DNA from: Nitrospirales bacterium
Lineage (GTDB): Bacteria; Nitrospirota; Nitrospiria; Nitrospirales; UBA8639
Reading direction: 5' to 3'
DNA length: 64,000 nt
Assembly (NCBI GenBank): GCA_965223295.1
Contig: CBDCWC010000003.1
Location: forward strand, 544,001 to 608,000
The notes below the pieces were generated by a model, which did not search any database, had not been told where the DNA came from, and saw nothing but the letters and a program-made list of their open reading frames with translations. Within the stretch, counting starts at the first letter, position 1; each line of letters starts with the position of its first letter. Positions 4,152 to 56,693 of this stretch are shown one piece after another. The position numbers and the translations under genes are program-made.

Positions 4152-4352
4152 AACTTCCTCCATTGATTCCACGGCCCCATGCCGCTTCATCAGAGGAGAT
4201 GGCACCACATCACAAATCCTTTCAGGATAATGCTGAAAAAATTCTCGGCCTAAAATTGGTGGGGTTTTGTTGATATAATCTGGAATGCTCTTTCTTTCCT
4301 GCAGTTTTCCCTCTATTCGACAGAAAACCCGCACGAAGGACAGGAGCCCTTG

Positions 4353-5051: not shown

Positions 5052-5136
5052 AGACAAAAATATATTTCATGTAGGGCGAGCTTTTCATTTCCCTCAAACC
5101 GCCAAATGACCTGATAAACCAGACCCTTCTTACCTC

Positions 5137-6612: not shown

Positions 6613-7169
6613 TACCCCACCGTCTCCTTATTTGGTCTAGGTCTTTTTCCCTGTAGAGAAATCGTCTCCCATTGGCCGCCCATTAACACCAGCAGTTCCT
6701 TACGACACCGCGAATCCCATGCATAGATCGTATTAATGGACTGCTCCCCCAACACCTGCTGAATCTCAGGAAAGGAATAGCCTTCCATTTTCAAGCGAAA
6801 CAGCCTTCGACAACGTTCGCCCAGTTGCAGCAACGAGGTAATTAGATGAGTCACCCGCTCTTTTTGTTCGGCTTGCGCGGCTGGATCATCTCCCGGCTCA
6901 ACAAGTGGATAATCATCCACCGACTCCTGGTTGTATTCCCCCCGCCTTAACATTTTTCGGTGCCGGTCGAGCATTTTATAACGGAGAATTTGAAATGAGA
7001 GGGGGACCAACTCCGTCAATTCTTCAACGTGGGGATATTTTTCGTGCAGCACCACCATGACATCCTGAGTGAGATCTTCGGCTACTTCCCTTGAACTACG
7101 AGATGTCGCAAACGCCACAATCCTTTCACGCAACTGTTGTAAAATCTCTTCTCGCTTTATCCTTGCCAC
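6612..7169 (-). CDS. ECF-type sigma-70 family sigma factor
   Basis: Region 2 AEDLTQDV; region 4 LGERCRRLFRLKMEGYSFPEIQQVLG. Confidence 0.85.
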   Translation of the reverse strand: MARIKREEILQQLRERIVAFATSRSSREVAEDLTQDVMVVLHEKYPHVEELTELVPLSFQILRYKMLDRHRKMLRRGEYNQESVDDYPLVEPGDDPAAQAEQKERVTHLITSLLQLGERCRRLFRLKMEGYSFPEIQQVLGEQSINTIYAWDSRCRKELLVLMGGQWETISLQGKRPRPNKETVG

Positions 7170-7311
7170 TTAGGTTCCTTCAGTATGTTAACGCTTCGAG
7201 CATTCCACTTGCCGACCTTATCCTAGTCTACCATTTTAAAACACAATGCCAGGTTTGAGACGTTCTCTATCTACACACTACCCTCAACGAACGCTAAAGA
7301 GAAGAGAATCT

Positions 7312-7791
7312 TCAAAGTGAGGTCAAATATACAGCAATCCCCAGAACGGTCAAACTGCATAAGAGAATAGCACGCTGGATCCACACGACCTTGCCGGAAA
7401 ACAGCAAAGGTGCTGTCTCGGTCTCTTGGCTCTTTCCGATCGCTCCATAAGGATCCAGGATGAGATCATGAACGAAGATCAATCCACCCACAATGGCAAA
7501 CACAAAGAGTTTGAACATCATGATCAAACCCCAATTGGTTTCAATACGGGCTGAGCCGCTTTCATCAAGTAATTGAGACGCCCCCGTAAAAATAAGGGCC
7601 ATCAGACTCACCCAGCCAACCGTCTTGAAACGTTGCCCCATTTTTCTGGCCATTTCCAAACCCTCTTTCGACGGTTTCTTGGTTTTGCCTTCTAGAAGAC
7701 TGGGTCTCACCGCTAATTGAAAAAATAGCCACCCCCCGATAAATGTGATGACGGCTAATAAATGTATCCAGGTCACGACAGACGCAGCCAT
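7312..7791 (-). CDS. CopD-like / DUF4149 four-TM membrane protein
   Basis: WIHLLAVITFIGG...VRPSL motif, four hydrophobic helices. Confidence 0.65.
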   Translation of the reverse strand: MAASVVTWIHLLAVITFIGGWLFFQLAVRPSLLEGKTKKPSKEGLEMARKMGQRFKTVGWVSLMALIFTGASQLLDESGSARIETNWGLIMMFKLFVFAIVGGLIFVHDLILDPYGAIGKSQETETAPLLFSGKVVWIQRAILLCSLTVLGIAVYLTSL

Positions 7792-7982
7792 ATCTCCACT
7801 CCGTTTACATGCGATTAGGACAACGTCCCCAATCATACCCACTAGTCGGGAGAAAGACTACTGTCTTAGCATAAAGTGCTTGGGAATTTTCTTTCAAATT
7901 TTTCGCATCATGGCGCACTTCCAGCAATAGGCTTTAGAATGGTTCCTGATATGTTCAACTATTTTTCTCAGGAGACCTCTCA

Positions 7983-8645
7983 ATGAACCAGCGATTTGAC
8001 ACAATGCCCTGTCGTCTTATTTTTTGGTGTATGACCTTGATGCTCCTTACAAGTGCCAATTTTTCGTCTTCTCTGACGTGGGCTATCGAACAGGATCAAA
8101 TCCGTTGGGACAAAAAATACGCGACGGAAAAGTATCTGTTCGGTCAAGAGGCGATCCCATTTTTGCAGGAGCATGTTGATTTGCTACCTCAAGGCCAAGT
8201 ACTAGACCTAGCAATGGGAGAAGGACGCAATGGAGTCTTTCTCGCAACCAAAGGGTTCACTGTCACCGGAGTAGATATTTCGGCGGAAGGGCTCAAAAAA
8301 GCGTCCGCTCTGGCAACTAAACGTCATGTTGCGATCACAACGATTGTCGCCGATCTTGATACATATGAAATACCGCCAAATACATTTGCTGTCATCATCT
8401 GCACGTACTACTTCCAACGTGATTTATTTCCCAAAATTGTGGCCGCGCTGAAACCTGGCGGCATGGCTCTGATTGAAACCTACACGACAGATCACCTCCA
8501 GTACCGCCCTCGATTTAACAAAGCCTGGTTATTGAAACCCAACGAACTCCTAACCATCCTCCCTGGCCTTCGGATTCTCCGCTATCAAGAAGTAAATGAT
8601 GGCCATGCCGCCTTTGCCAGCATCCTGGCTCAGAAACCACAATGA
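7983..8645 (+). CDS. Class I SAM-dependent methyltransferase (TehB-like)
   Basis: VLDLAMGEGRNG, VTGVDIS, LKPGG. Confidence 0.85.
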   Translation: MNQRFDTMPCRLIFWCMTLMLLTSANFSSSLTWAIEQDQIRWDKKYATEKYLFGQEAIPFLQEHVDLLPQGQVLDLAMGEGRNGVFLATKGFTVTGVDISAEGLKKASALATKRHVAITTIVADLDTYEIPPNTFAVIICTYYFQRDLFPKIVAALKPGGMALIETYTTDHLQYRPRFNKAWLLKPNELLTILPGLRILRYQEVNDGHAAFASILAQKPQ

Positions 8646-8721
8646 CAGGGCAATATCTCAACGGCCCATTTCCCAAACGATTTCATTTCTCCCACTCTCC
8701 GTCATTCTCATTTCCTACGCT

Positions 8722-8793
8722 GTCATTCCCGAGAAAGCGGGAATCCAGGCCTCATCTCGGCAAATGGATACCCACTAACAACTTGGGGGAATA
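8722..8793. repeat. GTCATTCCCG-type palindromic REP-like element
   Basis: gtcattcccgagaaagcgggaatccag with a degenerate right arm; a second copy lies at 22663. Confidence 0.6.
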
Positions 8794-8878
8794 CCAAAAA
8801 TGTAAAGGTTGCAGCTTTCCTGAATCTTCCGGTACCCTTGCAGCTCACTCTGACCCCTATGACATATCATCAATTGTT

Positions 8879-10396
8879 ATGACTGAACCCGCCCTCACTG
8901 ATTCTATTGCCGATCCTTGGATTGAGATTGGCCCTCAAACCCTAGACGAGGAGTTGCTCAACCAGCGGGCCTGGCGCATGCCTGACATTGTCATTTACCA
9001 ACATGGCCCTGAAGAATGGTGGGTGGCCCCCTTGGATGAAGAATTGCCACTGGTCCGATTAAACCGTATGGGCGCCACCCTACTTGGCGCCATGGATGGA
9101 CGCCTGACCATCGGAGCCTTGCTCAATCAATATGGGAAATGGGTGTGCAGTCCTACTCAACAGAATGGGCGTTGGCATCTGGAACGGTGGGCTCAACCTC
9201 GATTCTCGCTGGCCTTCTACGGAACCGAACCGCCGAGCGGGCACAGTGCCGAAGCGAAATGGGATCTGTTACTCCAAAAAGTTCGGGAAGGCTGGCATCA
9301 AAACGTCAAAGCTGAAACAGAAGATCATCTCTCCAAATTTCATGTGCAAGGCATTCAAGGCCCGCATGGACATTTCGAAATTATCGAGACCACTGTTTCT
9401 CATCTGTTTCGCGAGCCGTGCGAAGCCATGAACGGCCTCACCTATGGACGTCTCCTAGGTAAAACGCTACGCCAGATGGGATGGCTATCCCCCAAACCCA
9501 AACAGATTGTAGAAGTAGGCGCGGGACTAGGCTATGTCTCAAAAGAACTGGCGGAGGAACTCTCGGCCGAAGAGCGAAAAGATATTAACTATACATTTCT
9601 AGATCTGACTGGTCCATTCCTCGGGTCTCAAACTTCACTGGCTCAAAAAGCTGGGTGGAGAGCCTCCGCCATTCAAGCCAATGCCGAACACATGCCTGTA
9701 GCAGACCAATCAGTTGATTTGCTCATTGACAATGAAAATCTGGCCGACATGACGCCTGTGCAATTCTCTGGCGAGGAACTCCTGATGTTTAAAGGAGACA
9801 ATCCAGAACATGAAGAAGCGTTAGACCTCATCAGGCGCATGCACCTTCCGCTCATGCCGCCCTTTCCTGATGACGTTATTTTTAATTACGGCGCTATTCA
9901 ATTTCTCCAGGAAGTTTGGCGGGTCCTTAAACCAGGTGGGCGGGCGATCTTGATTGAATTCGGCATCGAAGAGAATTGGCCTTCACCCGTTAGATTACCA
10001 GGCCATACGGAATATGAAGTACAATTCAGTCATCTACGTCATGCCGCCAAATGGCTGGGGTTTCGCGAACAGTATTGCACGTTGCCGCAATTGCTCGGTA
10101 TGAATCCTGATACCCAAGTGCTTTGCACCGGCGCGGCCTATACGCTTCGACGCATCTGCCACGAACTAGGTGAACCCTTTTCCGTTCGCGCGTATACGGA
10201 AAAGGAATTAGGCTCTGCATTAGGCGAGCTCCTTCCCAAACTCACCGGTCTTCATTACCACAATGTCCTCGACCCCGCCTGGTTCGGTCTTTGGGATTTC
10301 AAAGTCATGTTGCTCGAAAAACCCGGCAGCATGAGCATCGGCCAACAACCGGCCTTCAAAGAATCTGCCGGCTTCCGCTGGTACACCCAACAGTAG
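8879..10396 (+). CDS. Class I SAM-dependent methyltransferase with an N-terminal PqqD/RRE-like segment
   Basis: IVEVGAGLG; EVWRVLKPGG; N-terminal LVRLNRMGATLLGAMDGRLTIGALL; the upstream ORF extension reads through a repeat and is likely spurious. Confidence 0.75.
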   Translation: MTEPALTDSIADPWIEIGPQTLDEELLNQRAWRMPDIVIYQHGPEEWWVAPLDEELPLVRLNRMGATLLGAMDGRLTIGALLNQYGKWVCSPTQQNGRWHLERWAQPRFSLAFYGTEPPSGHSAEAKWDLLLQKVREGWHQNVKAETEDHLSKFHVQGIQGPHGHFEIIETTVSHLFREPCEAMNGLTYGRLLGKTLRQMGWLSPKPKQIVEVGAGLGYVSKELAEELSAEERKDINYTFLDLTGPFLGSQTSLAQKAGWRASAIQANAEHMPVADQSVDLLIDNENLADMTPVQFSGEELLMFKGDNPEHEEALDLIRRMHLPLMPPFPDDVIFNYGAIQFLQEVWRVLKPGGRAILIEFGIEENWPSPVRLPGHTEYEVQFSHLRHAAKWLGFREQYCTLPQLLGMNPDTQVLCTGAAYTLRRICHELGEPFSVRAYTEKELGSALGELLPKLTGLHYHNVLDPAWFGLWDFKVMLLEKPGSMSIGQQPAFKESAGFRWYTQQ

Positions 10397-10429
10397 TTTT
10401 CTTTTCCCAAATTATTTCCTGATAGTTTT

Positions 10430-11353
10430 TTATAATTTTTGAGCCAGATCGACAAGGATCCCTTCACGGAGGCCGTAATCGCTGACGAGGCATGTGTGTT
10501 GATTGAGTGTTTCCATGATTCGGCGGAGAATGACGGTGCCCGCTATAATGACAAATTCGCGGCCTGGTTCCAGACCAGACATTTTTAGCCGTTCAGAACC
10601 TGTTTTGCTGACGAGGTTTTTCTCTAGACGAGTAATCGTCGCAAGGATGAGTTCATAGTTATGGATTCGACCACGGTCATACTCTTTGAGTTGTTGGGCC
10701 ATGGCAGCCAACGTGGTCACGGTACCTGCTGTTCCGACAAGTGGAATGTCTGGCAACGGACCAAACGTCTGCTTCATATTAGCCAATTGCTCATCTATCA
10801 CGCTTTCGGCATTGTGAAGATCTTGCCGGGTTGGCGGGTCGTGATGAAAGACCCGTTCCAACAATCGCACCACACCAAGATCTAACGAAATCATTTTTGG
10901 AGATTGTTCATTTTTCGCGAGAATACATTCTGTGCTTCCACCACCAATATCCAACCCTATAAAGCTTGAAACGTGTGTAGGCAACCCAAACCGAATACCC
11001 AGTAAAGTCCGCCGGGCTTCTTCTTCGCCCGTGAGAACGTCAACATCCCAGCCTGTTTCTCGTTTAACTCGCGTCAGGAATTCTTGACGATTTTCCGATT
11101 CGCGTACTGCACTCGTAGCCACAACCACCGTCGCATCCACAGCATATTTAGCTGTCCTTTCCCGCCATTCGGTAAGTGTGGACACTACTCGATTCATGGC
11201 GTCGTGTGCCAATCGTTTGTGTTGATCCACACCTTCGCCAAGCCGTAGGATTTTCCGACCTGCATCGATTTCTGCAAATTGGTACGGCATCTGCACATCA
11301 GCAACTAAGAGGCGACACGTTAAGGTCCCGATATCAATCCCTGCTAACCGCAT
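10430..11353 (-). CDS. ppx: Ppx/GppA exopolyphosphatase family protein
   Basis: GIDIGT, ATSAVRE, GEEEA, DIGGGSTE, GLREG. Confidence 0.9.
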   Translation of the reverse strand: MRLAGIDIGTLTCRLLVADVQMPYQFAEIDAGRKILRLGEGVDQHKRLAHDAMNRVVSTLTEWRERTAKYAVDATVVVATSAVRESENRQEFLTRVKRETGWDVDVLTGEEEARRTLLGIRFGLPTHVSSFIGLDIGGGSTECILAKNEQSPKMISLDLGVVRLLERVFHHDPPTRQDLHNAESVIDEQLANMKQTFGPLPDIPLVGTAGTVTTLAAMAQQLKEYDRGRIHNYELILATITRLEKNLVSKTGSERLKMSGLEPGREFVIIAGTVILRRIMETLNQHTCLVSDYGLREGILVDLAQKL

Positions 11354-11547
11354 AGTTTTAAGCCTCTCTATTCATCCGGCAAATACAGCCGAATGTTCAT
11401 GACCGCTAAGACTGTTGATTTTCTCAATTCCTGAAATTTTCTTGGCCTTCTTTTCCAGTTAGAACAGCCTGTGGTAGGATTTTATGCTTTTCCATAATGT
11501 GGAAGACAAACAAATTTCAGTCCCTTAACTTACAAAAGGAGCAGAGA

Positions 11548-11820
11548 ATGGCGCAAATTCATTGCCGCAAATGCGATAAAGACGGTGACCCCATCACCGA
11601 CAATTTGTTTATGGGAAAGCTTGAAGCCGAAATTAAGGAAAAAGTCTGTCAGCCCTGTTGGAATGAGTGGGCAGGCCCAGGCGGCACCAAAACCATGGTC
11701 ATTAACGAATATCAATTAAATCTTGGAGATGAAAGCGCAAGGGACACGCTGAAGAAACAAATGCGAGCCTTTTTGAAGTTAGATGAGACCGAGACAGAAT
11801 TCAAAGATTATCGGCATTAA
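11548..11820 (+). CDS. Fe(II)-trafficking / oxidative damage protection protein (YggX-like)
   Basis: CRKC...VCQPCWNEW...TMVINEYQLNL. Confidence 0.8.
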   Translation: MAQIHCRKCDKDGDPITDNLFMGKLEAEIKEKVCQPCWNEWAGPGGTKTMVINEYQLNLGDESARDTLKKQMRAFLKLDETETEFKDYRH

Positions 11821-11970
11821 GCAGGACGCGGGTACACGTTTTGTTCTTTACGAGATTCTGACGCATCAATGTGATGATATATTCTTTGCAAGTTTTTTTA
11901 TCCTTTTCCAAATTTCACTCGTATAGAGGCACCTCTTGAATGATCTAGTGATGCGCGATAGGATTATTTA

Positions 11971-44704: not shown

Positions 44705-44834
44705 CTACGCAGCTTCTCTTCTCCGACAGGCGATACCTTCTCAGGTTGAACATTCATAAACAGAGGTGTATTCTGGATTAGGCGCTTATACTCTACACAC
44801 GAAATTCTTCAACAACGCTCTCAATAGGGCAGCC

Positions 44835-46211
44835 ATGATTAAGCGAATTGTCGGCCTCGAATGCGAATATGGGCTCACATTTTCACCAACCGGACGTGTC
44901 TATCTCCCTATTGAAAAAATTCTCGGCTACATCTTCGAGGGGCTTATCCCCAATAGCTGGCCCTCTAATGCTTTTCTCACAAATGGCGCTCGATTCTATC
45001 AGGATACCGGGTGTCATCCCGAATATTCGACACCGGAATGCGATGACCTCATTGAGTTAGTCGTTCATGACAAGGCCGGAGAACGAATATTAGAAAATTG
45101 TCTCCCGATTGCGGAAGAACGGTTACGGGAAGAAGGACTCTCCGGAGATATTTTTATTTTCAAAAATAATACCGATTCGCTGGGCAACACCTACGGCTCA
45201 CATGAAAACTTTCTCATGCGGCGAGATGTCGATTTTTGGAAAGTGAGCGAGCAACTCATCCCGTTTTTTGTCACTCGCCAAATATATTCGGGCGCAGGAA
45301 AAATTCTTCGAGTATCCGGCAGATCTCAATTTTTTATTTCTCAACGGGCACAACATATTCATGAAAAGACTTCTTCCTCTACCACATCTTCCCGAAGTAT
45401 TATCAATACCCGAGATGAACCTCATTCTGATGCGGAGAAATACCGCCGCCTGCACATCATTCTTGGAGATTCCAACATGTCGGAATTCTCCACCTATTTA
45501 AAAGTGGGCACGGCCATGATCGTCCTCTCCATGATTGAGGATGGCTATACCATTCCCGACATCGAACTGGAAGAGCCGGTCAAAGCCATCCGCGATATTT
45601 CTCGCGACCCCACATTAAAGAAAACGGTCAAACTCGAAGACGGACGGGTCTTAACAGCCCTGGAAATTCAGCAAATATTTTGGGAGCGGGCAGGCGAATA
45701 TTTACAGACTCAACCTCCCAATAAAATATTGACCGAGGTTCATGAAGAATGGGGACGAGTCTTACGGCTTCTTGAGCATTCGCCCATGCAATTGGTCAGA
45801 GAAATCGATTGGATTACAAAAAAATGGATGTTAGAAAATTACATGGCCAACAAATCTTGTGGATGGGATGACCCACGACTCAGTATGATGGACCTTCAGT
45901 ATCATGACATCAATCGACAACGGGGACTCTTTTATGTCTTAGCCGAACGACATGGAATCAAAAAACTCGTGAATGAAGAAGCTATTGAACAGGCCAAAAC
46001 ACATCCTCCACAAACCACGCGCGCAAAAGTCCGAGGAGATTTCATCCGATTTGCCCGAGCTAAGAATCGGTCGTATACTGTTGATTGGACGTATCTCAAA
46101 TTGAATGGTTATTGGGAAGAAACGATTCTCTGTATGGATCCCTTCTGCCCCTTCAATCCCCGCGTAGATGAATTACTGAGCCAAGTACCGCACAGTCGAC
46201 TTTATCCATGA
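44835..46211 (+). CDS. pafA: Pup--protein ligase PafA
   Basis: GLECEYG, NGARFYQDTGCHPEY, KNNTDS, SQRA, TTRAKVRG. Confidence 0.92.
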   Translation: MIKRIVGLECEYGLTFSPTGRVYLPIEKILGYIFEGLIPNSWPSNAFLTNGARFYQDTGCHPEYSTPECDDLIELVVHDKAGERILENCLPIAEERLREEGLSGDIFIFKNNTDSLGNTYGSHENFLMRRDVDFWKVSEQLIPFFVTRQIYSGAGKILRVSGRSQFFISQRAQHIHEKTSSSTTSSRSIINTRDEPHSDAEKYRRLHIILGDSNMSEFSTYLKVGTAMIVLSMIEDGYTIPDIELEEPVKAIRDISRDPTLKKTVKLEDGRVLTALEIQQIFWERAGEYLQTQPPNKILTEVHEEWGRVLRLLEHSPMQLVREIDWITKKWMLENYMANKSCGWDDPRLSMMDLQYHDINRQRGLFYVLAERHGIKKLVNEEAIEQAKTHPPQTTRAKVRGDFIRFARAKNRSYTVDWTYLKLNGYWEETILCMDPFCPFNPRVDELLSQVPHSRLYP

Positions 46212-48797: not shown

Positions 48798-50405
48798 ATG
48801 AGAATCACCGCTCACCGATATCGTAACGCATGCATTCTCATCATGTGCTTATCTCTCTGTTTCCTCGGAGAAACATGGGGGCAATCGTCAAAACATCAAA
48901 TTCTCTCAGACGCCAGTTCAATCTCGAGCGAAGACGAGGCGCTCAAGGATCTCATACCTCCCGATTCAGTCATTTCTCTGACACTTCGGGATGCGGTCAT
49001 GAAGGCTCTTGAACATAATCTGGATATTCAAGTCAGCCGGCATACTAGAGATACACGCATTACCGATATTGTCTTGGAACAAGCCAAGTTTGATCCCACG
49101 GTTCAGCTTGGAACACGATATGATCGCCAGGTCTCCCCGCTCAACCGGCCTGTCTTCGGGTTTGGAGGCGTCACACTCGGCACTGGACCCGATAATTTTG
49201 ACCAAAACGACACACAGTTCAATTTGGGCTATTCGCAACGTCTCCTCACAGGAGGTTCTTACGATCTCACCTTTGATACCGGACGAAACTCTGTTGCCGG
49301 ACCAACAGGGTTTCTCTTTAACCCTTCCTACTCCAGCAACCTGTCAATCACGCTCACCCAACCTCTCCTGCGAAACTTTGGCTCCACCATCAATCAGACG
49401 TTGATCACCGTCGCTCGCAATGCGGCAGCGGTCGAACAACTGCTGTTAACCCAACAAATCATTTCCGTCATCGCGCAAGTCGAGCAGACCTATTGGGAAC
49501 TGGTCTTTGCCCGAGAAAATCTAAAAGTCGCATTTGCTACATTAAGGGCAGCTGAGGAGCTTCTAGCAAGTAACAGGGAGAAGGTGAAGGCTGGCGTCAT
49601 GGCTGAAGTGGAAGCGTTACAGGCACAGGCAGGCGTCGCAAATCGTATTGAACAAATTTTACTGGCGAAACAATCGGTTGAAGACCAGGAAGATCAATTG
49701 CGGCGATTATTAAGTCAATCAGAATGGAATTTGACCCAAACCACCCCGATCGTTCCACTGGACCAACCCATTCAACATCGATCGCGCGTTCCTCTAGAAG
49801 CGACGGTCAAACAAGCACTCAGAGACCGACCGGAAGTTTTACAAGTAAAAAAAAATCTCAACAGCGCACAGGCTCAGACTCAATTCGCCAACAATCAATT
49901 GTTGCCGGACCTCTCCTTTCAAGGCGGACTAGGTTTAGCAGGGCTGGGAAACGACCCCAATAATAGTTGGGATCGTATGATCAGCACGGATTTCTACAAT
50001 ATGGGTGGTGGGTTAACCTTGAGCTACCCCTTGGGCAATCGTGCGGCTGAAAGTCAGTACCAACGACGCACATTGGAAACGCACCAACAACAAGCTTCAC
50101 TTCTGCGTACCCGCCAACAAGTTATTTTGGATGTCAAAGAAGCCATCCGCCAGGTCGATACAAGCTACAAACGGATCCGCACGAATCAAACCGCGCGTCG
50201 CCTCTCAGAAAAACAACTCAATGCTGAGCAAGAACGCCTGCAGTTAGGACTGAGTACTACGCGAGTCGTCCTAGAATTCCAACGAGACTTGCAAACAGCC
50301 CAAAGCCTGGAACTCCGCGCGATTCTGGACTACAATCAATCCCTCTCCCGCCTCCGCCTTGCTACCGCCTCAACACTTGACTATTACAACATCCAGGTCC
50401 AATAA
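48798..50405 (+). CDS. TolC family outer membrane efflux protein
   Basis: LTLRDAVMKALEHNLDI, LTQPLLRNFG, VEQTYWEL, AEQERLQLGLST. Confidence 0.9.
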   Translation: MRITAHRYRNACILIMCLSLCFLGETWGQSSKHQILSDASSISSEDEALKDLIPPDSVISLTLRDAVMKALEHNLDIQVSRHTRDTRITDIVLEQAKFDPTVQLGTRYDRQVSPLNRPVFGFGGVTLGTGPDNFDQNDTQFNLGYSQRLLTGGSYDLTFDTGRNSVAGPTGFLFNPSYSSNLSITLTQPLLRNFGSTINQTLITVARNAAAVEQLLLTQQIISVIAQVEQTYWELVFARENLKVAFATLRAAEELLASNREKVKAGVMAEVEALQAQAGVANRIEQILLAKQSVEDQEDQLRRLLSQSEWNLTQTTPIVPLDQPIQHRSRVPLEATVKQALRDRPEVLQVKKNLNSAQAQTQFANNQLLPDLSFQGGLGLAGLGNDPNNSWDRMISTDFYNMGGGLTLSYPLGNRAAESQYQRRTLETHQQQASLLRTRQQVILDVKEAIRQVDTSYKRIRTNQTARRLSEKQLNAEQERLQLGLSTTRVVLEFQRDLQTAQSLELRAILDYNQSLSRLRLATASTLDYYNIQVQ

Positions 50406-50472
50406 GCTCTCCTATACCTGCTGTCTACACGAAAAACCAGCTGCTCTTGGAATTCTGCAAACATTGTTTGCA

Positions 50473-50498
50473 CCCTTCGACATGGATCAGGACTAGCC
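50473..50498 (+). repeat. CCCTTCGAC-type REP-like remnant
   Basis: cccttcgacatggatcaggactagcc; related sequences at 48728 and 53252. Confidence 0.45.
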
Positions 50499-50682: not shown

Positions 50683-51510
50683 CTAGGCCCGCACCACTTC
50701 TTCCAATTCTGGTAGTTCACGCTGAGGAATGAGACGATTGAGGTTATTGGGTCCATGGCCAGTTTGAGAAAGTTGAAACAGTGCATCACTTTCAGGCTCG
50801 ACCGTCCCAAAGAGCCAATCATAGAGAGGCATAAATAAGGAGTAATTGGCTTCCCAGCGAGAATGATGCAAGCTATGAAAACTTGGCGTATAGACTAACC
50901 ATTTCAAGGGGGAACGTCCGTACCACTTAGGAAAAAACTCAACATTGCAATGACCAATGCTATTCAAGAAGTCAAAAACCAGGAAATAGACAAAGAACCC
51001 GAGAGGCGTCAGATGGCCCATCCACCCGACAATCAAGACCGTCAGTGCAAAAAGCACGAGGTAGCTCAAGCGTTCAAAGAGTGTAAAGGTATACCCCGAA
51101 GGCGGACTGGGAACCGTGGCTTTATGATGCTTGATATGATGCTTACGGAGCGTAGGATTTCGATGCAGAAGGATATGATAGCCATAATAGATTGGCTCCG
51201 TCACAAACATATGCGTCAACGTCAGTGCCATGAAACCAATGGCCGTCTGATTAAAGGTTGGCAGGCTTTCCCATTCAATGAAGAGGAGCACACCCCAATA
51301 CGTCAATAGTGCAAATCCTGCCGCATCCACAAAAAACGGCACGGCCCAAAATTTTTCCCGTTCGAATTGTTCTGCAGGAATAGGTATCTGGTAAATGCGT
51401 TGGCGTTCCGCAGACGCTGAACGAGAAATCCAAGAAATCAGACAGACCAACCCGACACGAAGCAAGGCCCAACTCAGAAAAAACATCCCAAAATACCAAT
51501 TGATTTCCAT
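50683..51510 (-). CDS. Fatty acid hydroxylase/sterol desaturase superfamily membrane di-iron enzyme, CER1/CER3-like
   Basis: His boxes HILLH, HIKHH, HSLHH plus DFLNSIGHCNVE and YTPSFHSLHH...NYSLFMPLYDWLFGT. Confidence 0.85.
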   Translation of the reverse strand: MEINWYFGMFFLSWALLRVGLVCLISWISRSASAERQRIYQIPIPAEQFEREKFWAVPFFVDAAGFALLTYWGVLLFIEWESLPTFNQTAIGFMALTLTHMFVTEPIYYGYHILLHRNPTLRKHHIKHHKATVPSPPSGYTFTLFERLSYLVLFALTVLIVGWMGHLTPLGFFVYFLVFDFLNSIGHCNVEFFPKWYGRSPLKWLVYTPSFHSLHHSRWEANYSLFMPLYDWLFGTVEPESDALFQLSQTGHGPNNLNRLIPQRELPELEEVVRA

Positions 51511-51527
51511 GTGAAAATTCCTCTCAT

Positions 51528-52682
51528 CTACATGGCATAGGCCATGCTAACCCGGTTTTCCTGTGAGACATGAGTAAATCGACGAGTACGCGCTTTCTTC
51601 TTTTTCTTATCAACCCGTAAATGGTCATAATACGTGCGAATAATTGAAGCCAGAGAGTCGACCTCTACGGATTCAAACACTTCAGGATGATCTTTGAGTA
51701 CGGCCCGGAGCTTGTGAGTTTGAAAATTCCAAGTTTGCGTGGAATACACTCGGTTCGGCTCAATGAGCTTTTCAAGTTTTTGTTCGAGTAAAGACTCCGC
51801 TTGTTCATAGACTAGAGTCAGACCAATTTCGTTGGCGACCGTTGAGAGCAACGTCCTTGTATTCATATTTTCGGCACTCACGAGATGGAACACTTCATGA
51901 TGCTGTCGATGCTCTGTCGTTTGCGACAACCATTGTGCTTGATTGATTACCGTATCAATCGAGACGAGATTCGTGGCTGCCTCCGCAGGAATTTGGAGAC
52001 GGATCTGAGAAGTGAGCTTGCTCAGGGTAAAGAAACCTCGAGCAAACATATACAGGCCATATGGTTTAAAATTACACCATCCGGTCTCCTGATGGCCGAT
52101 TACAATCGACGGCCGCACAATAGTCAGCGGATTTCCTCTATTGCCTTGCTGCGACGCGTGAGACAATGTCTGTTCTGTGAGGAATTTTGTGACTTGGTAG
52201 GAGTTGCCTAACACGGGAAGGAGATGCAAGGCTTCATCAACATCAGCCCCAATATTCCCTCCAACATACGCTGTCGACATGTAGTAGAACCGGTTGGCAC
52301 GAGCACTTGTTTCCGAAAACTTTTGATAGAGCAACACACTATTTCGCACATTATTCTCATACGAATTTGCGAGATTCTCTGAGGCATAATTCATGTCCGC
52401 CGCACAATGCCATACCTCGACAACCTCTTCCCAAAATGTCAATCGATCTAATTCATGAGAGAAATTTTCGTGATCAATATCTTCAATATGTAAATTCTTG
52501 AGCACCTGGGGAGACACATCGTAGCCAAATCCACGCATTGCCGCCGTAATGCTTTGCAGCGTCCGACTTCCATCAGGGTCATTTCGTGACAAGCAAATCA
52601 CCTTTTTCCCACTCGCCAGAAACGCACCTGCTAACGCGCCGCCAATAAACCCAGTACCGCCGGTAATAAGAATATAAGCCAT
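51528..52682 (-). CDS. Extended SDR, fatty acyl-CoA / thioester reductase (male-sterility) type
   Basis: ITGGTGFIG, VWHCAA, YMSTAYV, NSYQVTK, IVRPSIVIG. Confidence 0.85.
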   Translation of the reverse strand: MAYILITGGTGFIGGALAGAFLASGKKVICLSRNDPDGSRTLQSITAAMRGFGYDVSPQVLKNLHIEDIDHENFSHELDRLTFWEEVVEVWHCAADMNYASENLANSYENNVRNSVLLYQKFSETSARANRFYYMSTAYVGGNIGADVDEALHLLPVLGNSYQVTKFLTEQTLSHASQQGNRGNPLTIVRPSIVIGHQETGWCNFKPYGLYMFARGFFTLSKLTSQIRLQIPAEAATNLVSIDTVINQAQWLSQTTEHRQHHEVFHLVSAENMNTRTLLSTVANEIGLTLVYEQAESLLEQKLEKLIEPNRVYSTQTWNFQTHKLRAVLKDHPEVFESVEVDSLASIIRTYYDHLRVDKKKKKARTRRFTHVSQENRVSMAYAM

Positions 52683-53223
52683 GATGACTATTCTCTCCTT
52701 CCCAATTTTTTTACAAAAACTCGTACAGATGCCGGAATCGTAGAGAGAGGTTCTCGTGGTATCGAAAACTGGTTGCGCCTATCTTTGATTTCTTTGTTCT
52801 CTGTATTGGACATGAAAGCAACAGCTATGCCATGACCAATCGCATTCAGAAATTTGGCGTGATACTTTGGGAAAGGGTTGTGGAAAAAAAGAAAAAGCTG
52901 AGCACGAAAAGCGTCAATAAGTCCGTGAGGGCAAGGGACTGGATTGATGCCGATGACATGAACCGGACGACGAGAATCCAAACCAGATGCCTCGTTTCAG
53001 ATTTTTGAAATTGTTATGACAAAAATTTGGCCTGCTAACGTATCTTTGCAACAATGCGCGACAGACTGTTCCTTTCTGGCGGCTTCCTGAAGATATTTTC
53101 ATGATTGTCGAACAACGCTCATTCTCCTACGTCGAGAGAATCCAAAGCTCAAAAGTTATCCAAATAGATACAGAGCATATCTATTTGGATACGAATTCGT
53201 CTTTTCATATCACCTCTACCAGA

Positions 53224-53276
53224 GCTCTTGAAAAAAGCCACCAGCGGCCTGCCCTTCGACAAGCTCAGAGCAGGCC
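53224..53276 (+). repeat. Half-MITE end plus a CCCTTCGACAAGCTCAG REP-like motif
   Basis: gctcttgaaaaaagccaccagcggc then cccttcgacaagctcagagcaggc. Confidence 0.55.
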
Positions 53277-53593
53277 ATTTGAATCGGTCCGTAGATGATG
53301 ACTGGCAAGGATTTCCTAACGAAATACGGCCTTTGATCTCCTCATTAGTCAACACTCTCCTTACTAGATATGTCTTCCATTGTATACGCTGGTTGCACCC
53401 TTGAGTTGATTGAGCTTCGATCGAGGTGCAAGAAGAGAACTCTGTGAATTCTTCCATTATTTGAAACATTCAACCCGCACATGTGAACCAATATCCTTCA
53501 ACTCTTTGACAAGAACTCCCAGTTCCCTGAGGCTCACCCCTCCTGCTACCATAAGATAACGACACGGCATCCCTATTCATGTGATTTGCCCTC

Positions 53594-54730
53594 ATGTCTG
53601 GAAAGGTCTTATCCACAGTTTTTCTACTCATTCTGGCTTCGGGCATTGGCCTCTATGCCTATCTGCCTGATTTTCAATCGGATGCTTCGGAAAAATCCCA
53701 ACTGGAAACCGTTGAAGTAGTGCGCAGTTCTCTGCAAACGCGAGTATCAGAAACCGGAACAATCCAGCCTTCAAAAACAATCGAAATTAAATCGCAATTT
53801 TCCGGGGAAGTTGCACAATTGTTTGTTTCAAGTGGGAAGCCTGTCAAAAAGGGCGAAGTGCTGGCGATTATTCGTCAGGAATCGATCCAAGCTCGCCAAG
53901 TTGCGCAACTTCGGGCCGCTATTCAAGAAGAACGTCTCAATGTGAATACCGCCCAACGGGAATGGGTTCGCTCTCAAGCCTTATTTAAGAAAGGCTTCAT
54001 TGCCCAGCAGGCCCTGGAGAACGCCGAGCATGAATACCAACGTACATTGGTCCGCTTAGAACTGGCCGAACGCCAATTGCTACTAGCGCTAGGTGGGAAT
54101 AAAGAGTTATTTGAACGTTACCAGGAAAACCCAACACAGAGCAGTCGTCCGGAAGAATTCCAGGTCCGCTCTCCAACGAATGGCACCGTATTAGAGGTTC
54201 TTGTCAATCCCGGAGAGATTATTACTTCAGGAACGGCCACATTTGGTGGAGGCACCGTGCTCATGAAAGTAGCGGATCTTTCACGCATGATCGTCAAAGC
54301 CAAAATCAACGAAGTGAATGTCCCACGAGTGGCCGTTGGTCAAGAAGTTGATATTCGCTTAGACGCCCTTCCAGACCAACACTTCAAAGGACGAGTAAAC
54401 GCGATCGCTGCGCAGGGTGTGAAAGAAGAAAATATCGTCACCTATGATGTGACGATTGCCATCTTAGATTCAAACCCGGCTCTCAAACCCATGCTCACAG
54501 CTAATGTAGATATTGTGACGAGGCAATTGGACGATGTGCTCACCATCCCATTGAATGTCCTCAAAGTAAAAAATGGGGATGATATCGTCGAAGTGCTCAC
54601 AAATGGAACATCAAAAACTCAGAAAGTACGAGTCGCATTTCGAACCGATACCGAAGCAGTCATTACGAAAGGCCTCCAAGAACATGATCAAGTCGTGATC
54701 CCAAAATTTAAGCCAACCACCGAAAATTAA
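53594..54730 (+). CDS. MacA-like periplasmic adaptor (membrane fusion protein)
   Basis: TGTIQP...IKSQFSGEV, SPTNGTV, VADLSRM, NEVNV. Confidence 0.9.
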   Translation: MSGKVLSTVFLLILASGIGLYAYLPDFQSDASEKSQLETVEVVRSSLQTRVSETGTIQPSKTIEIKSQFSGEVAQLFVSSGKPVKKGEVLAIIRQESIQARQVAQLRAAIQEERLNVNTAQREWVRSQALFKKGFIAQQALENAEHEYQRTLVRLELAERQLLLALGGNKELFERYQENPTQSSRPEEFQVRSPTNGTVLEVLVNPGEIITSGTATFGGGTVLMKVADLSRMIVKAKINEVNVPRVAVGQEVDIRLDALPDQHFKGRVNAIAAQGVKEENIVTYDVTIAILDSNPALKPMLTANVDIVTRQLDDVLTIPLNVLKVKNGDDIVEVLTNGTSKTQKVRVAFRTDTEAVITKGLQEHDQVVIPKFKPTTEN

Positions 54731-54753
54731 TCACTCCTTCAGTTACATGGTCA

Positions 54754-55464
54754 ATGCTCATTACCTTACGCCAAATCAATAAAGTCTACTTCACAGGTGA
54801 CATTGAAGTTCATGCTCTGCGGAACGTGAGTATTACTATTGAGTCCGGCGAGTTTGTGGCGATTATCGGGCAATCGGGTAGCGGGAAAACAACATTGCTA
54901 GATATTTTAGGCTGTCTCAGTCATCCCACACATGGAGAATATTGGCTCAACGGCGCGCACATTCATACCTTGCCCGACTCGGAACTCACGACCATTCGCA
55001 ATCAACAAATTGGGTTTATCTTTCAGACCTTCCACCTCTTACCACGCAAATCTGCCTTAGAAAATGTGCAACTCCCGCTTATGTATGCTGGAACCAACCG
55101 CGCTCAACAACAAGAACGTGCCCTTGAATTACTCACCATGGTGGGGCTTGAAGATCGAGTGCATCATCATAGCAACCAATTATCAGGTGGGCAGCAGCAA
55201 CGAGTCGCCATTGCCCGCGCCCTAGCCAACCATCCTTCATTACTTCTCGCAGACGAACCGACTGGCAATTTGGACAGCCAATCTGGACACGAAATTTTAT
55301 CAATATTCGAAACCCTCCATCGTCAGGGACAAACCATTGTCATGATCACACATGACCCACTGATCGCTCAACGCGCTAGTCGGCGTATCACACTCTTAGA
55401 CGGACGAGTGCTATCTGATGAATCGACTGCATCCCCGGCACTAGAAGTGCTTCAAGAAATCTAG
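54754..55464 (+). CDS. MacB/LolD-type ABC ATP-binding protein
   Basis: [33 protein letters not shown]. Confidence 0.92.
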
Positions 55465-55472
55465 AGACCGCC

Positions 55473-56693
55473 ATGCTTGGAGCCATTTTTCGTGATGCCC
55501 TAAAAAATCTGTCTGGCAATATGCTGCGTTCCGGCCTGACCATGCTAGGCGTAATTATTGGTGTCGCTTCGGTCATTGCCATGATGGCCATTGTAGAAGG
55601 TGGACAGGTCTGGTTGGTCAGTTCTATAGAACGCTTAGGCACCAATCTGTTGTTTGTTTGGAAAAAACGGTTGACCATGGAAGAAAAACGGATGTTTGCC
55701 GGACGAAATCTTCAGCTGCGTTATGACGACACCTTGGCTGTTCGAGACCACTTCCCCGAACTCACCGTTGCACCTATCATCGAAATTGATGGGCAAGTCA
55801 AAGCTGGAGAACGAGATTACAGTGGAAGCATCACTGGCACATCACCCGAATTTAGCGAGATCCGCAACTTTCGACCAGCGGTTGGACGTTTTTTGCAAAC
55901 TACTGATGTTCATACCTGGAACCGAGCCGCGGTGCTCGGAAAAACCATTGCAGAGGTCCTGTATGGATCGCAAGCGGCGGTAGGACAGCAACTGAAAATT
56001 GGGGAGCATCGATTTACGGTGGTTGGTGTCATGGAACCCAAAGGAGAAGTCTATGGACAAGATCGGGACGAAATGATTTTTATTCCGGTGACCACCGCTC
56101 TACGTTTTTTTAAAGGCACGGACAAAATTGGGTCAATGGTCATTCACGTGCCGAACCGAGATGATATGGAGGAAGTCACACATCAGCTTCATCAATTTCT
56201 TATCCAACGTCATGACGGCGTTGATGATATTCGCGTGCGTAATCAGGGCGATTTTCTCGGAGCCATCGACCGAACCATTTGGACTTTTCGCATTGTGCTT
56301 GGCGGAATTGCCATTGTGGCATTATTGGTGGGAGGCATTGGGATTATGAATATAATGCTGGTCACGGTCACAGAACGTACCCGCGAAATTGGCTTACGGA
56401 AAGCCATTGGCGCGAAGCGCCGTGACATTCTGCTCCAATTTCTCATTGAATCTACCACGATCAGTGTGATTGGGGGATGCTTTGGAGTCATCCTGGGAAT
56501 CTTTGCCGCCTATGGCTTTGGAAATTTTGTCGCGCAATCCATGCCTGGCGGAGGTGATTGGGGCGCCGTCATCAAACCCGCCGCCATTGCCATCGCCTTT
56601 GTGTTTGCCGTCAGTGTGGGAATTCTATTTGGACTGTTCCCGGCCATGAAAGCCTCAAAACTTGACCCCGCCGAAGCCCTGCGTTACCAATAG
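55473..56693 (+). CDS. MacB-type ABC permease
   Basis: RSGLTMLGVIIGV, GGIGIMNIMLVTVTERTREIG, KLDPAEALRY. Confidence 0.92.
   Translation: MLGAIFRDALKNLSGNMLRSGLTMLGVIIGVASVIAMMAIVEGGQVWLVSSIERLGTNLLFVWKKRLTMEEKRMFAGRNLQLRYDDTLAVRDHFPELTVAPIIEIDGQVKAGERDYSGSITGTSPEFSEIRNFRPAVGRFLQTTDVHTWNRAAVLGKTIAEVLYGSQAAVGQQLKIGEHRFTVVGVMEPKGEVYGQDRDEMIFIPVTTALRFFKGTDKIGSMVIHVPNRDDMEEVTHQLHQFLIQRHDGVDDIRVRNQGDFLGAIDRTIWTFRIVLGGIAIVALLVGGIGIMNIMLVTVTERTREIGLRKAIGAKRRDILLQFLIESTTISVIGGCFGVILGIFAAYGFGNFVAQSMPGGGDWGAVIKPAAIAIAFVFAVSVGILFGLFPAMKASKLDPAEALRYQ

What the first reader, a model, noticed from the sequence alone, without database searches (positions are those of the whole stretch)
50683..52682. Candidate bacterial CER1-type alkane/wax pathway: fatty-acyl reductase plus CER1/CER3-like di-iron enzyme
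Seen: two co-oriented genes 17 bp apart. The first is an extended SDR of fatty acyl-CoA/thioester reductase type (TGxxGFIG, STAYV, YxxxK, RPSIVIG). The second is a 275-aa membrane protein with three His boxes. Its motifs (EPIYYGYHILLH, FERLSYLVLFA, DFLNSIGHCNVEFFPK, PLKWLVYTPSFHSLHH, NYSLFMPLYDWLFGT) closely follow the N-terminal domain of plant ECERIFERUM1/3 as I recall it, more than generic sterol desaturases do. Known: in plants CER1/CER3 convert very-long-chain acyl-CoA via an aldehyde to alkanes, whereas cyanobacteria use the unrelated soluble AAR/ADO pair. Inference: this is a split, bacterial reductase plus decarbonylase module, with a FAR-type SDR replacing the fused WAX2 C-terminal domain.
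Basis: partly seen in the sequence, partly recalled or inferred. Interest (0 to 1): 0.85.

Follow-up and report, generated by a model that had tools for sequence, protein, structure and literature searches.

The report
Bacterial split CER1-like alkane gene pair
An uncultured Nitrospirales bacterium carries, side by side, a fatty-acyl reductase gene and a small membrane iron enzyme whose nearest named relatives are the plant wax enzymes CER1/CER3, so it probably makes hydrocarbons by a plant-like route that has not been described in bacteria.

Summary
On the minus strand, a 384-aa extended SDR (52682..51528) is followed 17 bp later by a 275-aa three-His-box membrane protein (51510..50683).

Outside its own Nitrospirales clade, the small protein's best named relatives are plant CER1 (E 1e-33, 36% identity over 87%) and CER3. 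In a careful tree it falls in a bacterial group next to the clade that holds all WAX2-fused CER1/3 proteins. It is not inside that clade.

The two genes travel together: 8 of 50 genomes of the genus have the SDR, always beside the hydroxylase, and in at least three different genomic contexts. In the window the cassette sits inside an otherwise contiguous TolC/MacAB-like operon.

In other bacteria, CER1-like genes sit beside other carboxyl or thioester reductases: a thioester-reductase SDR, a CAR-like AMP-binding+reductase protein, and an HMG-CoA-reductase-like protein. One metagenomic protein fuses a reductase of the window's type to a CER1-like domain.

Most likely mechanism (about 0.6, inferred, no biochemistry): acyl thioester to aldehyde to C(n-1) hydrocarbon. 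The electron donor is unknown.

I found no description of bacterial CER1-type modules in the papers I could search. I rate it a new variant of a known kind, worth an expression test.

The parts
51528..52682 (-). Gene 1: 384-aa extended SDR of the NAD_binding_4 (male-sterility / FAR / thioester-reductase) family; proposed acyl-thioester to aldehyde reductase
   Evidence: ORF. PF07993 scores 1.2e-24, 87.3 bits (cut-off 20.1). TIGR01746 scores 71.8 bits, below its 213.35 cut-off. G8, G11, G14, S136, K166 and R190 are invariant, and T7 and Y162 at least 90% conserved, in 41 homologues. It is the only strong NAD_binding_4 match in the genome. The best solved relative is the MxaA reductase domain 4u7w, E 6e-6.
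51511..51527 (-). 17-nt spacer between the two genes with an AGAGGA ribosome-binding-like word
   Evidence: Sequence read. In relatives the two genes are 17-25 nt apart or overlap.
50683..51510 (-). Gene 2: 275-aa membrane di-iron-type FA_hydroxylase protein, a stand-alone homologue of the N-terminal domain of CER1/CER3; proposed aldehyde-deformylating (alkane-forming) enzyme
   Evidence: PF04116 scores 3.6e-21. It is 36% identical to Citrus CER1 residues 53-285, E 4e-37, with H100, H112, H116, H125, H128, H129, H187, H212, H215 and H216 all aligned to His. Nine of these His are invariant in 39 homologues. The AF2 model has pLDDT 92.5.
52683..53593 (.). Intergenic region upstream of the pair, divergent from the HlyD-family gene; presumed promoter region, no gene
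   Evidence: The 97-aa ORF at 52688-52981 matches the closest relative only in three shifted frames, while the DNA is 76% identical, so it is not a gene. A perfect 14-nt inverted repeat lies at 53157-53191. The promoter scan is no better than shuffles.
48798..50405 (+). Flank, not part of the cassette: TolC-like outer-membrane efflux protein
   Evidence: PF02321 OEP 5.3e-44. In 4 of 5 genus genomes without the pair, this gene directly abuts the HlyD-family gene.
53594..56693 (+). Flank, not part of the cassette: MacAB-like exporter (HlyD-family adaptor, ABC ATPase, FtsX-type permease)
   Evidence: NCBIfam: RND_mfp and MacA-like adaptor, MacB N-terminal half, MacB C-terminal half.

Best explanation
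A two-gene, probably co-transcribed cassette encodes a split bacterial counterpart of the plant/algal CER1/3 hydrocarbon pathway. Step 1 (inferred): the NAD_binding_4 SDR uses NAD(P)H to reduce a fatty acyl thioester (CoA or ACP) to the fatty aldehyde. Step 2 (inferred): the 275-aa membrane protein, through a di-iron centre held by its conserved histidines, removes C1 of the aldehyde oxidatively and releases a C(n-1) alkane or alkene into the membrane. The FAR-type SDR stands where eukaryotic CER1/3 proteins carry the fused, AAR-like WAX2 reductase domain. What is shown: gene structure, family membership, nearest relatives, conserved catalytic residues, and conserved, recurrent pairing with reductases. 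What is inferred: substrates, product, O2 dependence and the electron donor. No cytochrome b5 was found, so the donor is probably a ferredoxin-type partner encoded elsewhere.
For: (1) Nearest named relatives are CER1 and CER3. All 8 hits among longer proteins have FA_hydroxylase plus CER1-like_C, with Citrus CER1 at E 1.3e-33, 36% identity and 87% coverage, and Sesamum CER3 at 5e-23. The pairwise alignment runs over residues 11-248, beyond the Pfam domain. (2) In the exhaustive search (1379 hits at E<=1e-3, 29 at <=1e-30), 39 of the 42 listed representatives of 450 aa or more have a WAX2-like C-terminus (Pfam-confirmed for P0051, P0054, P0057, P0091 and P0150). (3) In the careful IQ-TREE (67 rows), a 95/97 clade of 45 rows unites a 13-row bacterial group (Nitrospirales 100/100) with the 30-row clade (97/83) holding all WAX2-bearing proteins. 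Other short FA_hydroxylases and 6 Nitrospirales-order paralogues lie outside. (4) The pairing is conserved. The SDR occurs in 8 of 50 genus genomes, the hydroxylase lies beside it in all 9 distinct Nitrospirales loci examined, and these loci fall in at least three genomic contexts. Of the 25 genus genomes searched with both proteins, 6 have both and 19 have neither. (5) CER1-like genes recur beside carboxyl or thioester reductases of different families in other bacteria. L026 has a TIGR01746 reductase at 261.7 bits, above its cut-off, abutting the gene. L038 has an NAD_binding_4 gene at 3.2e-57, convergent. L063 has a 1046-aa AMP-binding+NAD_binding_4 protein overlapping the start of the gene. 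L035 has a reductase fragment. Four Parachlamydiales loci have an HMG-CoA-reductase-family gene overlapping the start, and no HMG-CoA synthase was found in the 2 genomes searched. (6) A natural fusion exists: P0074 (664 aa, 5 cluster members) is NAD_binding_4 plus a CER1-like hydroxylase. (7) The catalytic residues of both proteins are conserved. (8) Passages and section 24 of PMC13326499 report that the algal CER1/3 N-terminal His motifs are needed for hydrocarbon formation, and that aldehydes supplied in trans by another protein's reductase domain are processed. A separate reductase feeding the domain is therefore plausible.
Against: No product, substrate or expression datum exists for any bacterial member. 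The protein lies outside the clade of WAX2-bearing CER1/3 proteins. An AU test rejects grouping it with plant CER1 (delta lnL 75.4, p 2.3e-6), so function is extrapolated across a deep split. The SDR fails the TIGR01746 cut-off and is only 18-23% identical to the reductases beside CER1-like genes in L026 and L038. Its second-tier relatives (31-39% identity) sit in a DHQS-II-like / condensation-like / AMP-binding cluster without any CER1-like gene, so the subfamily is not dedicated to this pathway. No Cyt-b5 family gene was found in the genome and no redox partner lies in the cassette. One bacterial-type locus (L065) shows no adjacent reductase in the DNA held. ERG3, ERG25 and AGMO references were not available for the tree.
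Confidence: 0.6

Rival explanations
1. The pair makes or modifies another lipid. The SDR delivers a fatty aldehyde or alcohol. The His-box enzyme then hydroxylates or desaturates a lipid, as most FA_hydroxylase members do, and does not cut off C1. The result would be a hydroxy or unsaturated alcohol, diol or ether-type lipid, not an alkane.
For: The superfamily is mostly hydroxylases and desaturases. The only NCBIfam hit is ornithine-lipid hydroxylase OlsE at 20 bits. The best solved fold is the sphingolipid alpha-hydroxylase Scs7p (Z 5.8). The protein is sister to the characterised CER1/3 clade, not inside it. L065 links a CER1-like gene to a PKS and an MGDG-synthase-like glycosyltransferase.
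Against: The named nearest relatives are hydrocarbon-forming CER1 and CER3, with far better scores than the generic family model (135 bits against 76 bits). Recurrent pairing with enzymes whose product is an aldehyde fits an aldehyde-consuming enzyme best.
Confidence: 0.2
2. The order is reversed and the role is catabolic. The His-box enzyme acts like alkylglycerol monooxygenase (a FA_hydroxylase member; recalled) and releases a fatty aldehyde from an ether lipid. The SDR then reduces that aldehyde to the alcohol.
For: It would explain a His-box enzyme next to an aldehyde-handling SDR. FAR-type enzymes can reduce aldehydes (established knowledge, recalled).
Against: No AGMO-named protein appears among the 45 hits. 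The top hits are CER1/3-type. CAR-like and thioester-reductase partners make aldehydes from acids or thioesters, which fits a biosynthetic order.
Confidence: 0.06
3. The adjacency is incidental: two unrelated accessory genes that merely share an insertion site, with no common pathway.
For: The cassette sits at a site that is an insertion hot spot. The same OEP/HlyD spacer holds about 4 kb of transposase-like ORFs in G064.
Against: The two genes are found together or not at all. They are 17-25 nt apart or overlapping and move together between contexts. The same domain pair is fused in P0074.
Confidence: 0.03

Closest known systems
Plant CER1/CER3 heterodimer and the algal bifunctional CER1/3 enzyme (PMC13326499, passages and section 24 read)
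   Same: The N-terminal FA_hydroxylase domain is homologous: 36% identity to Citrus CER1, with all His-box histidines aligned. The logic is the same two steps, a reductase making an aldehyde and a His-box domain making the hydrocarbon.
   Different: The bacterial protein has no fused WAX2/CER1-like_C domain, and none was found in the genome (where the control was also silent). The reductase is a separate FAR-type extended SDR with no detectable similarity to the CER1 C-terminus. The protein lies outside the WAX2-bearing clade. No cytochrome b5 was found. The activity is untested.
Cyanobacterial AAR/ADO alkane pathway
   Same: A two-gene bacterial module turning acyl thioester into aldehyde and then C(n-1) alkane, with a di-iron enzyme in the second step (established knowledge; pathway named in PMC13521276).
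   Different: ADO is a soluble ferritin-like protein and AAR is a different reductase family (recalled). Neither family appears in the Pfam results for the two proteins here. Here the second enzyme is an integral membrane His-box protein.
Insect FAR + CYP4G decarbonylase
   Same: A FAR-type reductase supplies the aldehyde to a separate membrane oxidative decarbonylase (passage of PMC13521276).
   Different: The decarbonylase is a cytochrome P450, unrelated to FA_hydroxylase proteins.
Yeast sphingolipid alpha-hydroxylase Scs7p (PDB 4zr0/4zr1)
   Same: It is the best structural match of the AF2 model (Z 5.8, rmsd 5.4, 174 residues) and shares the His-coordinated dimetal membrane fold family.
   Different: Sequence similarity is undetectable by phmmer or a profile. 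Scs7p hydroxylates and carries a fused cytochrome b5 domain (recalled).
Terminal thioester-reductase (R) domains and bacterial FARs, e.g. MxaA R domain (PDB 4u7w)
   Same: Same Pfam family and the same Rossmann and S/Y/K motifs.
   Different: The SDR here stands alone, falls below the TIGR01746 cut-off, and forms its own Nitrospirales subfamily.

Membership tests
FA_hydroxylase superfamily (PF04116) | Match to the family model above its curated cut-off | tested here: met
   76.4 bits against a cut-off of 31, residues 98-236.
FA_hydroxylase superfamily (PF04116) | Three histidine boxes (HX3H, HX2HH, HX2HH) | tested here: met
   H112/H116, H125/H128/H129 and H212/H215/H216 are invariant in 39 homologues, as is H187.
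FA_hydroxylase superfamily (PF04116) | Scs7p-like membrane fold | tested here: inconclusive
   The AF2 model has pLDDT 92.5. Scs7p is the top match of 48161 chains, but only at Z 5.8 and 5.5, with the next row at 4.2. Foldseek gives no match at E<=1e-3 and places 4zr0_A at rank 2 with E 1.6.
CER1/CER3 (CER1/3) family | N-terminal domain closer to CER1/3 than to other FA_hydroxylase proteins | tested here: met
   named CER1 at 1e-33, 39 of 42 long top hits carry WAX2, and a joint clade has 95/97 support.
CER1/CER3 (CER1/3) family | Fused C-terminal WAX2 / CER1-like_C domain (PF12076) | tested here: not met
   The protein is 275 aa and matches PF04116 only. No PF12076 match was found in the genome, though the control genomes were also silent.
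CER1/CER3 (CER1/3) family | Placement inside the clade of WAX2-bearing proteins | tested here: not met
   It falls in a bacterial group outside the 97/83 clade. An AU test rejects union with plant CER1, p 2.3e-6, although that group was named after the tree had been seen.
CER1/CER3 (CER1/3) family | Forms C(n-1) hydrocarbons from acyl-CoA-derived aldehydes | not testable with these tools
   Needs expression and GC-MS.
CER1/CER3 (CER1/3) family | Cytochrome b5 as helper or electron donor (recalled for the plant system) | tested here: not met
   No PF00173 match in the 100%-complete genome; the control rang in 1 of 14 genomes.
NAD_binding_4 / thioester-reductase SDRs (PF07993, TIGR01746) | Family model above cut-off | tested here: met
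   PF07993 at 87.3 bits against 20.1.
NAD_binding_4 / thioester-reductase SDRs (PF07993, TIGR01746) | TIGR01746 thioester-reductase subfamily cut-off | tested here: not met
   71.8 bits against 213.35. The L026 partner passes at 261.7 bits.
NAD_binding_4 / thioester-reductase SDRs (PF07993, TIGR01746) | TGxxGxxG Rossmann motif and the S/T, Y, K catalytic residues | tested here: met
   T7, G8, G11, G14, S136, Y162 and K166 are invariant across 6 diverse reductases and conserved in 41 homologues.
Cyanobacterial AAR/ADO | Homology to ADO or AAR | tested here: not met
   No such family appears in the Pfam or NCBIfam lists for either protein.
Sterol C5-desaturase / C4-methyl oxidase / AGMO | Nearest relatives belong to these families | tested here: inconclusive
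   None of the 45 hits bears such a curated name. A cluster that JGI labels 'lathosterol oxidase' (P0112) falls outside the CER1-like clade. Curated ERG3, ERG25 and AGMO sequences could not be obtained for the tree.

The most novel reading that the evidence does not exclude
Stand-alone CER1-like enzymes form a widespread, uncharacterised third type of bacterial alkane-forming enzyme. They have been teamed at least four separate times with different aldehyde-generating reductases: FAR-type SDR, thioester-reductase domain, CAR-like A-R protein and HMG-CoA-reductase-like protein. This bacterial lineage is the source of the N-terminal catalytic domain that eukaryotes later fused to a WAX2 reductase to make cuticular and algal hydrocarbons.
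Probability: 0.4. Interest if true: 0.85.

Novelty: new variant of a known kind. Interest (0 to 1): 0.72.

Why it matters
CER1 chemistry is still described as needing further experiments (PMC13326499, section 24). As far as I recall, the enzyme has never been studied in purified form. A 275-aa bacterial homologue with a separate soluble-type reductase partner offers a far simpler system for expression, mutagenesis, identification of the co-product and structure determination. If active, it would add a third bacterial alkane route beside AAR/ADO and the olefin pathways, and it would be of interest for biofuel engineering. It would also give a concrete prokaryotic sister group for the origin of the plant cuticle's alkane-forming enzyme. 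The swapping of reductase modules (WAX2, FAR-type, CAR-like, HMGR-like) around one decarbonylase-like core is a clear case of non-orthologous displacement.

Tried and rejected
- **Complex prediction:** Complex prediction on hydroxylase + SDR, with alignments A4 and A5, scored 0.00 in both runs. That gives no verdict either way.
- **Expression:** no RNA holder was listed for the stretch.
- **PDB by sequence:** neither the single protein nor profile A1 found a relative.
- **Foldseek against PDB:** no match at E<=1e-3.
- **ESM Atlas:** only generic 'sterol desaturase family' bacterial clusters at 0.94-0.95, which does not discriminate.
- **The search for related loci with alignment A1:** failed for lack of a conserved stretch. 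It was repeated with the smaller alignment A2.
- **A third gene upstream:** the 97-aa ORF at 52688-52981 was rejected. Its relative matches only across shifted frames.
- **Flanking repeat:** the 22-nt direct repeat around the cassette (50456-50477 and 53381-53402, 77% identity) was treated as probably chance.
- **Functional link to the TolC/MacAB-like genes:** downgraded. These genes are contiguous in 4 of 5 relatives lacking the pair, and the same spacer holds IS-like ORFs in the fifth.
- **Wax-ester route:** no PF03007 match in the genome, but the control genomes were silent too, so the result is uninformative.
- **Recent transfer from plants, or contamination:** rejected on three grounds. 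The AU test gives p 2.3e-6, the GC content is ordinary (0.45-0.47), and the genes are embedded in a 3-contig genome.
- **Chaudhary et al. 2021 (Mol Phylogenet Evol):** this paper may treat FAH-only bacterial proteins but is not held. Supplements of the papers I read are closed and could contain bacterial sequences.
- **Earlier scan notes:** none concerned CER1-type genes.
Full report
**Observation.** A 384-aa protein is encoded at 52682..51528 and a 275-aa protein at 51510..50683. They are separated by 17 nt that contain an AGAGGA ribosome-binding-like word. Pfam places the first protein in NAD_binding_4, the 'male sterility' family (1.2e-24, 87.3 bits, cut-off 20.1). It places the second in FA_hydroxylase (3.6e-21, 76.4 bits, cut-off 31). 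NCBIfam gives the SDR 71.8 bits on the thioester-reductase model TIGR01746, below its cut-off of 213.35. It gives the hydroxylase only a 20-bit OlsE match. GC content is ordinary for the window, 0.45-0.47. The window lies in a 3.78-Mb, 3-contig genome scored 100% complete. Close homologues carry the source label 'Nitrospirales bacterium'.

**What the 275-aa protein is.** A word-indexed search among proteins of similar length found 37 hits.
- Thirty-one are Nitrospirales-type orthologues at 64-92% identity.
- The next are a eukaryotic transcript (36%) and a partial Taxus protein carrying the WAX2 domain.
- JGI labels three of the hits 'aldehyde decarbonylase'.

Among longer proteins, all 8 hits combine FA_hydroxylase with CER1-like_C. 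They include Citrus CER1 (E 1.3e-33, 36% identity, 87% coverage) and Sesamum CER3 (5e-23). The BLASTP alignment to Citrus CER1 covers query residues 11-248 against CER1 residues 53-285. That is well beyond the Pfam domain. Ten histidines are aligned.

An exhaustive phmmer search of 1.84 billion representatives gave 1379 hits at E<=1e-3 and 29 at <=1e-30. Of the 148 listed representatives other than the query's own cluster, 42 are 450 aa or longer. Thirty-nine of those have a C-terminus similar to plant CER1/CER3 C-termini. Pfam confirmed this for the five I scanned.

The stronger match to CER1 than to CER3 fits a statement in PMC13326499 (passages). There the CER1 N-terminal domain is described as the conserved, catalytic one, and the CER3 N-terminal domain as less conserved.

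**Phylogeny.** I cut the hydroxylase domain from 204 proteins, reduced them to 141 rows at 75% identity, and built a FastTree. I then built a careful IQ-TREE (LG+C20 PMSF) on a hand-picked 67 rows, rooted on six generic FA_hydroxylase paralogues from Nitrospirales-order genomes.

Both trees give the same picture. In the careful tree, a clade of 45 rows (bootstrap/SH-aLRT 95/97) contains two main groups:
- a bacterial group of 13 rows (82/90), comprising Nitrospirales (100/100), two gammaproteobacterial lineages, Legionellaceae and Parachlamydiales;
- a 30-row clade (97/83) that holds every WAX2-bearing protein, including named CER1, CER3, Aureococcus and Amorphochlora sequences.

Other short FA_hydroxylase proteins lie outside this clade. 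One of them belongs to a cluster JGI labels 'lathosterol oxidase'. An AU test rejects forcing the Nitrospirales rows together with plant CER1 (delta lnL 75.4, p 2.3e-6). That group was chosen after I had seen the tree.

The protein is therefore a bacterial sister of CER1/3. It is not a member of that clade and not a recent plant acquisition.

Three limits apply. Most short rows are metagenomic and have no taxonomy. The outgroup branch is long. Curated ERG3, ERG25 and AGMO sequences could not be obtained.

**Structure.** An AlphaFold2 model from a 39-row alignment is confident (pLDDT 92.5, pTM 0.87). Against 48161 PDB representatives, the best matches are the two Scs7p hydroxylase-domain entries (Z 5.8 and 5.5, with the next row at 4.2). 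Foldseek ranks Scs7p second, at a non-significant E of 1.6. This agrees with the literature statement that the CER N-terminal domain resembles Scs7p. On its own it is weak evidence.

**The SDR.**
- G8, G11, G14, S136, K166 and R190 are invariant, and T7 and Y162 at least 90% conserved, in 41 homologues.
- T7, G8, G11, G14, S136, Y162 and K166 are also invariant across the diverse reductases found beside other CER1-like genes.
- It is the only strong NAD_binding_4 match in the genome.
- Its best solved relative is the MxaA terminal reductase domain (E 6e-6).
- It shows no similarity to the CER1 C-terminal region (best E 0.61).

Beyond the Nitrospirales orthologues (59-97% identity), the next relatives (31-39%) are in Chromobacterium, Microbulbifer and a Pseudomonas. 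There the gene sits between a DHQS-II-like gene and condensation-like and AMP-binding genes, and no CER1-like gene is present. That context again suggests reduction of an activated carboxylate. It also shows that the subfamily is not dedicated to one pathway.

**Conservation of the pair.** The SDR is found in 8 of 50 genomes of the genus. The hydroxylase is adjacent in all 9 distinct Nitrospirales loci I examined. Among the 25 genus genomes searched with both proteins, 6 have both and 19 have neither. In a sample of 401 genomes of the phylum (162 genera), only 3 match at E<=1e-25, and all belong to the window's family.

In the window and its closest relatives, the cassette lies between a TolC-like gene and a MacAB-like HlyD/ABC/FtsX set. 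In more distant Nitrospirales it lies in other contexts. In 4 of 5 genus genomes lacking the pair, the TolC-like and HlyD-family genes are directly adjacent on one strand. In the fifth, the same spacer holds about 4 kb of transposase-like ORFs. The pair is therefore a mobile two-gene accessory cassette inserted into an efflux operon. The link to efflux in this window is probably incidental.

**The same logic elsewhere.** Scans of genome and metagenome contigs gave further bacterial-type CER1-like genes. Of the 75 metagenome loci, I examined the 9 with long contiguous matches. The other 66 mostly match only residues 140-258 or less, as intron-split eukaryotic genes or short contigs would, and I did not analyse them.

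I could judge seven non-redundant locus types, and six have a carboxyl or thioester reductase gene next door:

| Locus type | Neighbouring reductase |
|---|---|
| Nitrospirales | FAR-type SDR |
| L026 (marine gammaproteobacterial single-cell genome) | TIGR01746 reductase, 261.7 bits, ending one base before the CER1-like start |
| L035 (Legionellaceae bin) | Reductase fragment cut by the contig end, 47 aa aligned, E 5e-7 |
| L038 (gammaproteobacterial bin) | NAD_binding_4 gene, 3.2e-57, convergent; also FadL/TodX and AcrB genes |
| L063 | 1046-aa AMP-binding + NAD_binding_4 protein (carboxylic-acid-reductase-like) overlapping the CER1-like start |
| Parachlamydiales (L037, L039, L066, L067) | Divergent HMG-CoA-reductase-family gene overlapping the CER1-like start, followed by FadL/TodX |
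| L065 | None in the DNA held; a divergent PKS gene is cut at the locus end |

For the Parachlamydiales gene, TIGR00533 scores 290.8 bits against a cut-off of 441.8. No HMG-CoA synthase was found in the 2 genomes searched, and the control rang in 4 of 14 genomes.

In addition, P0074 (664 aa, 5 cluster members on separate contigs) is a natural fusion of NAD_binding_4 with a CER1-like hydroxylase. It sits inside the WAX2-bearing clade.

**Mechanism.** Section 24 of PMC13326499 reports several points for the algal enzyme. The C-terminal NADPH-site and Cys motifs and the N-terminal His motifs are each needed for hydrocarbon formation. Aldehydes provided in trans by AtCER3's C-terminal domain are converted by the algal N-terminal domain.

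By analogy, I propose that the Nitrospirales SDR reduces an acyl thioester to the aldehyde, and that the membrane His-box protein converts it to the C(n-1) hydrocarbon. This is inference. The substrates, the product, the oxygen requirement and the electron donor are all unknown. No Cyt-b5 gene was found in the genome.

**Literature.** Searches combining CER1 with bacteria or with the taxa concerned found no description of bacterial stand-alone CER1-like genes or of their pairing with reductases.
- PMC13326499 does not contain the words 'bacteria' or 'prokaryot'.
- The review PMC13510223 (passages) mentions only WAX2-only proteins in bacteria and archaea, citing Chaudhary et al. 2021.
- That paper is not held and may cover FAH-only proteins.
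- Supplements were closed.
- Automatic annotation already calls some of these proteins 'aldehyde decarbonylase'.

**Verdict.** The finding is a new variant of a known kind: a split, prokaryotic CER1-type module with a non-homologous reductase.

Noticed in passing
L062 (G064:C1:2672000-2680000), about 2200-5700: In a genus relative without the cassette, the same OEP/HlyD spacer holds several transposase-like ORFs. The site appears to be an insertion hot spot.
   Followed up: partly
window 53157-53191: A perfect 14-nt inverted repeat (TATCCAAATAGATA / TATCTATTTGGATA, 7 nt apart) lies in the divergent intergenic region between the cassette and the HlyD-family gene. It may be an operator or a terminator-like element.
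   Followed up: no
L037/L039/L066/L067 (Parachlamydiales-type loci): The CER1-like gene sits in an outer-membrane biogenesis neighbourhood: a BamA-sized ORF, an LpxD-like ORF (judged by eye, not scanned), then the HMG-CoA-reductase-like gene, the CER1-like gene and FadL/TodX. The HMGR-family gene is below the NCBIfam cut-off, and no HMG-CoA synthase was found in these genomes.
   Followed up: partly
L077:1313-4621 (= protein P0150 type): One uninterrupted 1102-aa ORF on a GC-rich metagenome contig combines CER1-like_C (WAX2), FA_desaturase and FA_hydroxylase domains. The order is permuted relative to plant CER1/3.
   Followed up: no
P0054 (Amorphochlora amoebiformis, 764 aa): A CER1/3-type protein has a cytochrome b5 domain fused at its C-terminus. 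This fits b5 being the electron donor in eukaryotes.
   Followed up: no
L074:3290-4981: A 563-aa CER1-like protein lies on an AT-rich contig beside a patatin-like gene and ORFs with repeated Cys-rich 'CEKCDFTCCK' motifs. The organism type is unclear.
   Followed up: no
L051 and relatives (Chromobacterium, Microbulbifer, Pseudomonas sp.): The second-tier SDR homologues belong to a conserved cluster of DHQS-II-like, SDR, condensation-like and AMP-binding genes plus a secreted protein. In L051 a LuxI-type autoinducer synthase lies beside it. This looks like an uncharacterised small-molecule pathway.
   Followed up: partly
L038 (gammaproteobacterial bin), 3773-11826: The CER1-like gene and its convergent reductase are flanked by FadL/TodX, an OMP beta-barrel, AcrB and an adaptor-sized ORF. 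Hydrophobic-compound transport genes recur near CER1-like genes in 3 lineages.
   Followed up: no
window 44766-46211: A Pup-ligase family gene (PF03136, 1.5e-153) lies upstream of an M23 peptidase and a LOG-like gene. This block is syntenic in close relatives.
   Followed up: no
G000:C2:15719-16123 (L048): The genome has a second, unrelated FA_hydroxylase gene (106 bits, 400-aa frame). I did not examine it.
   Followed up: no
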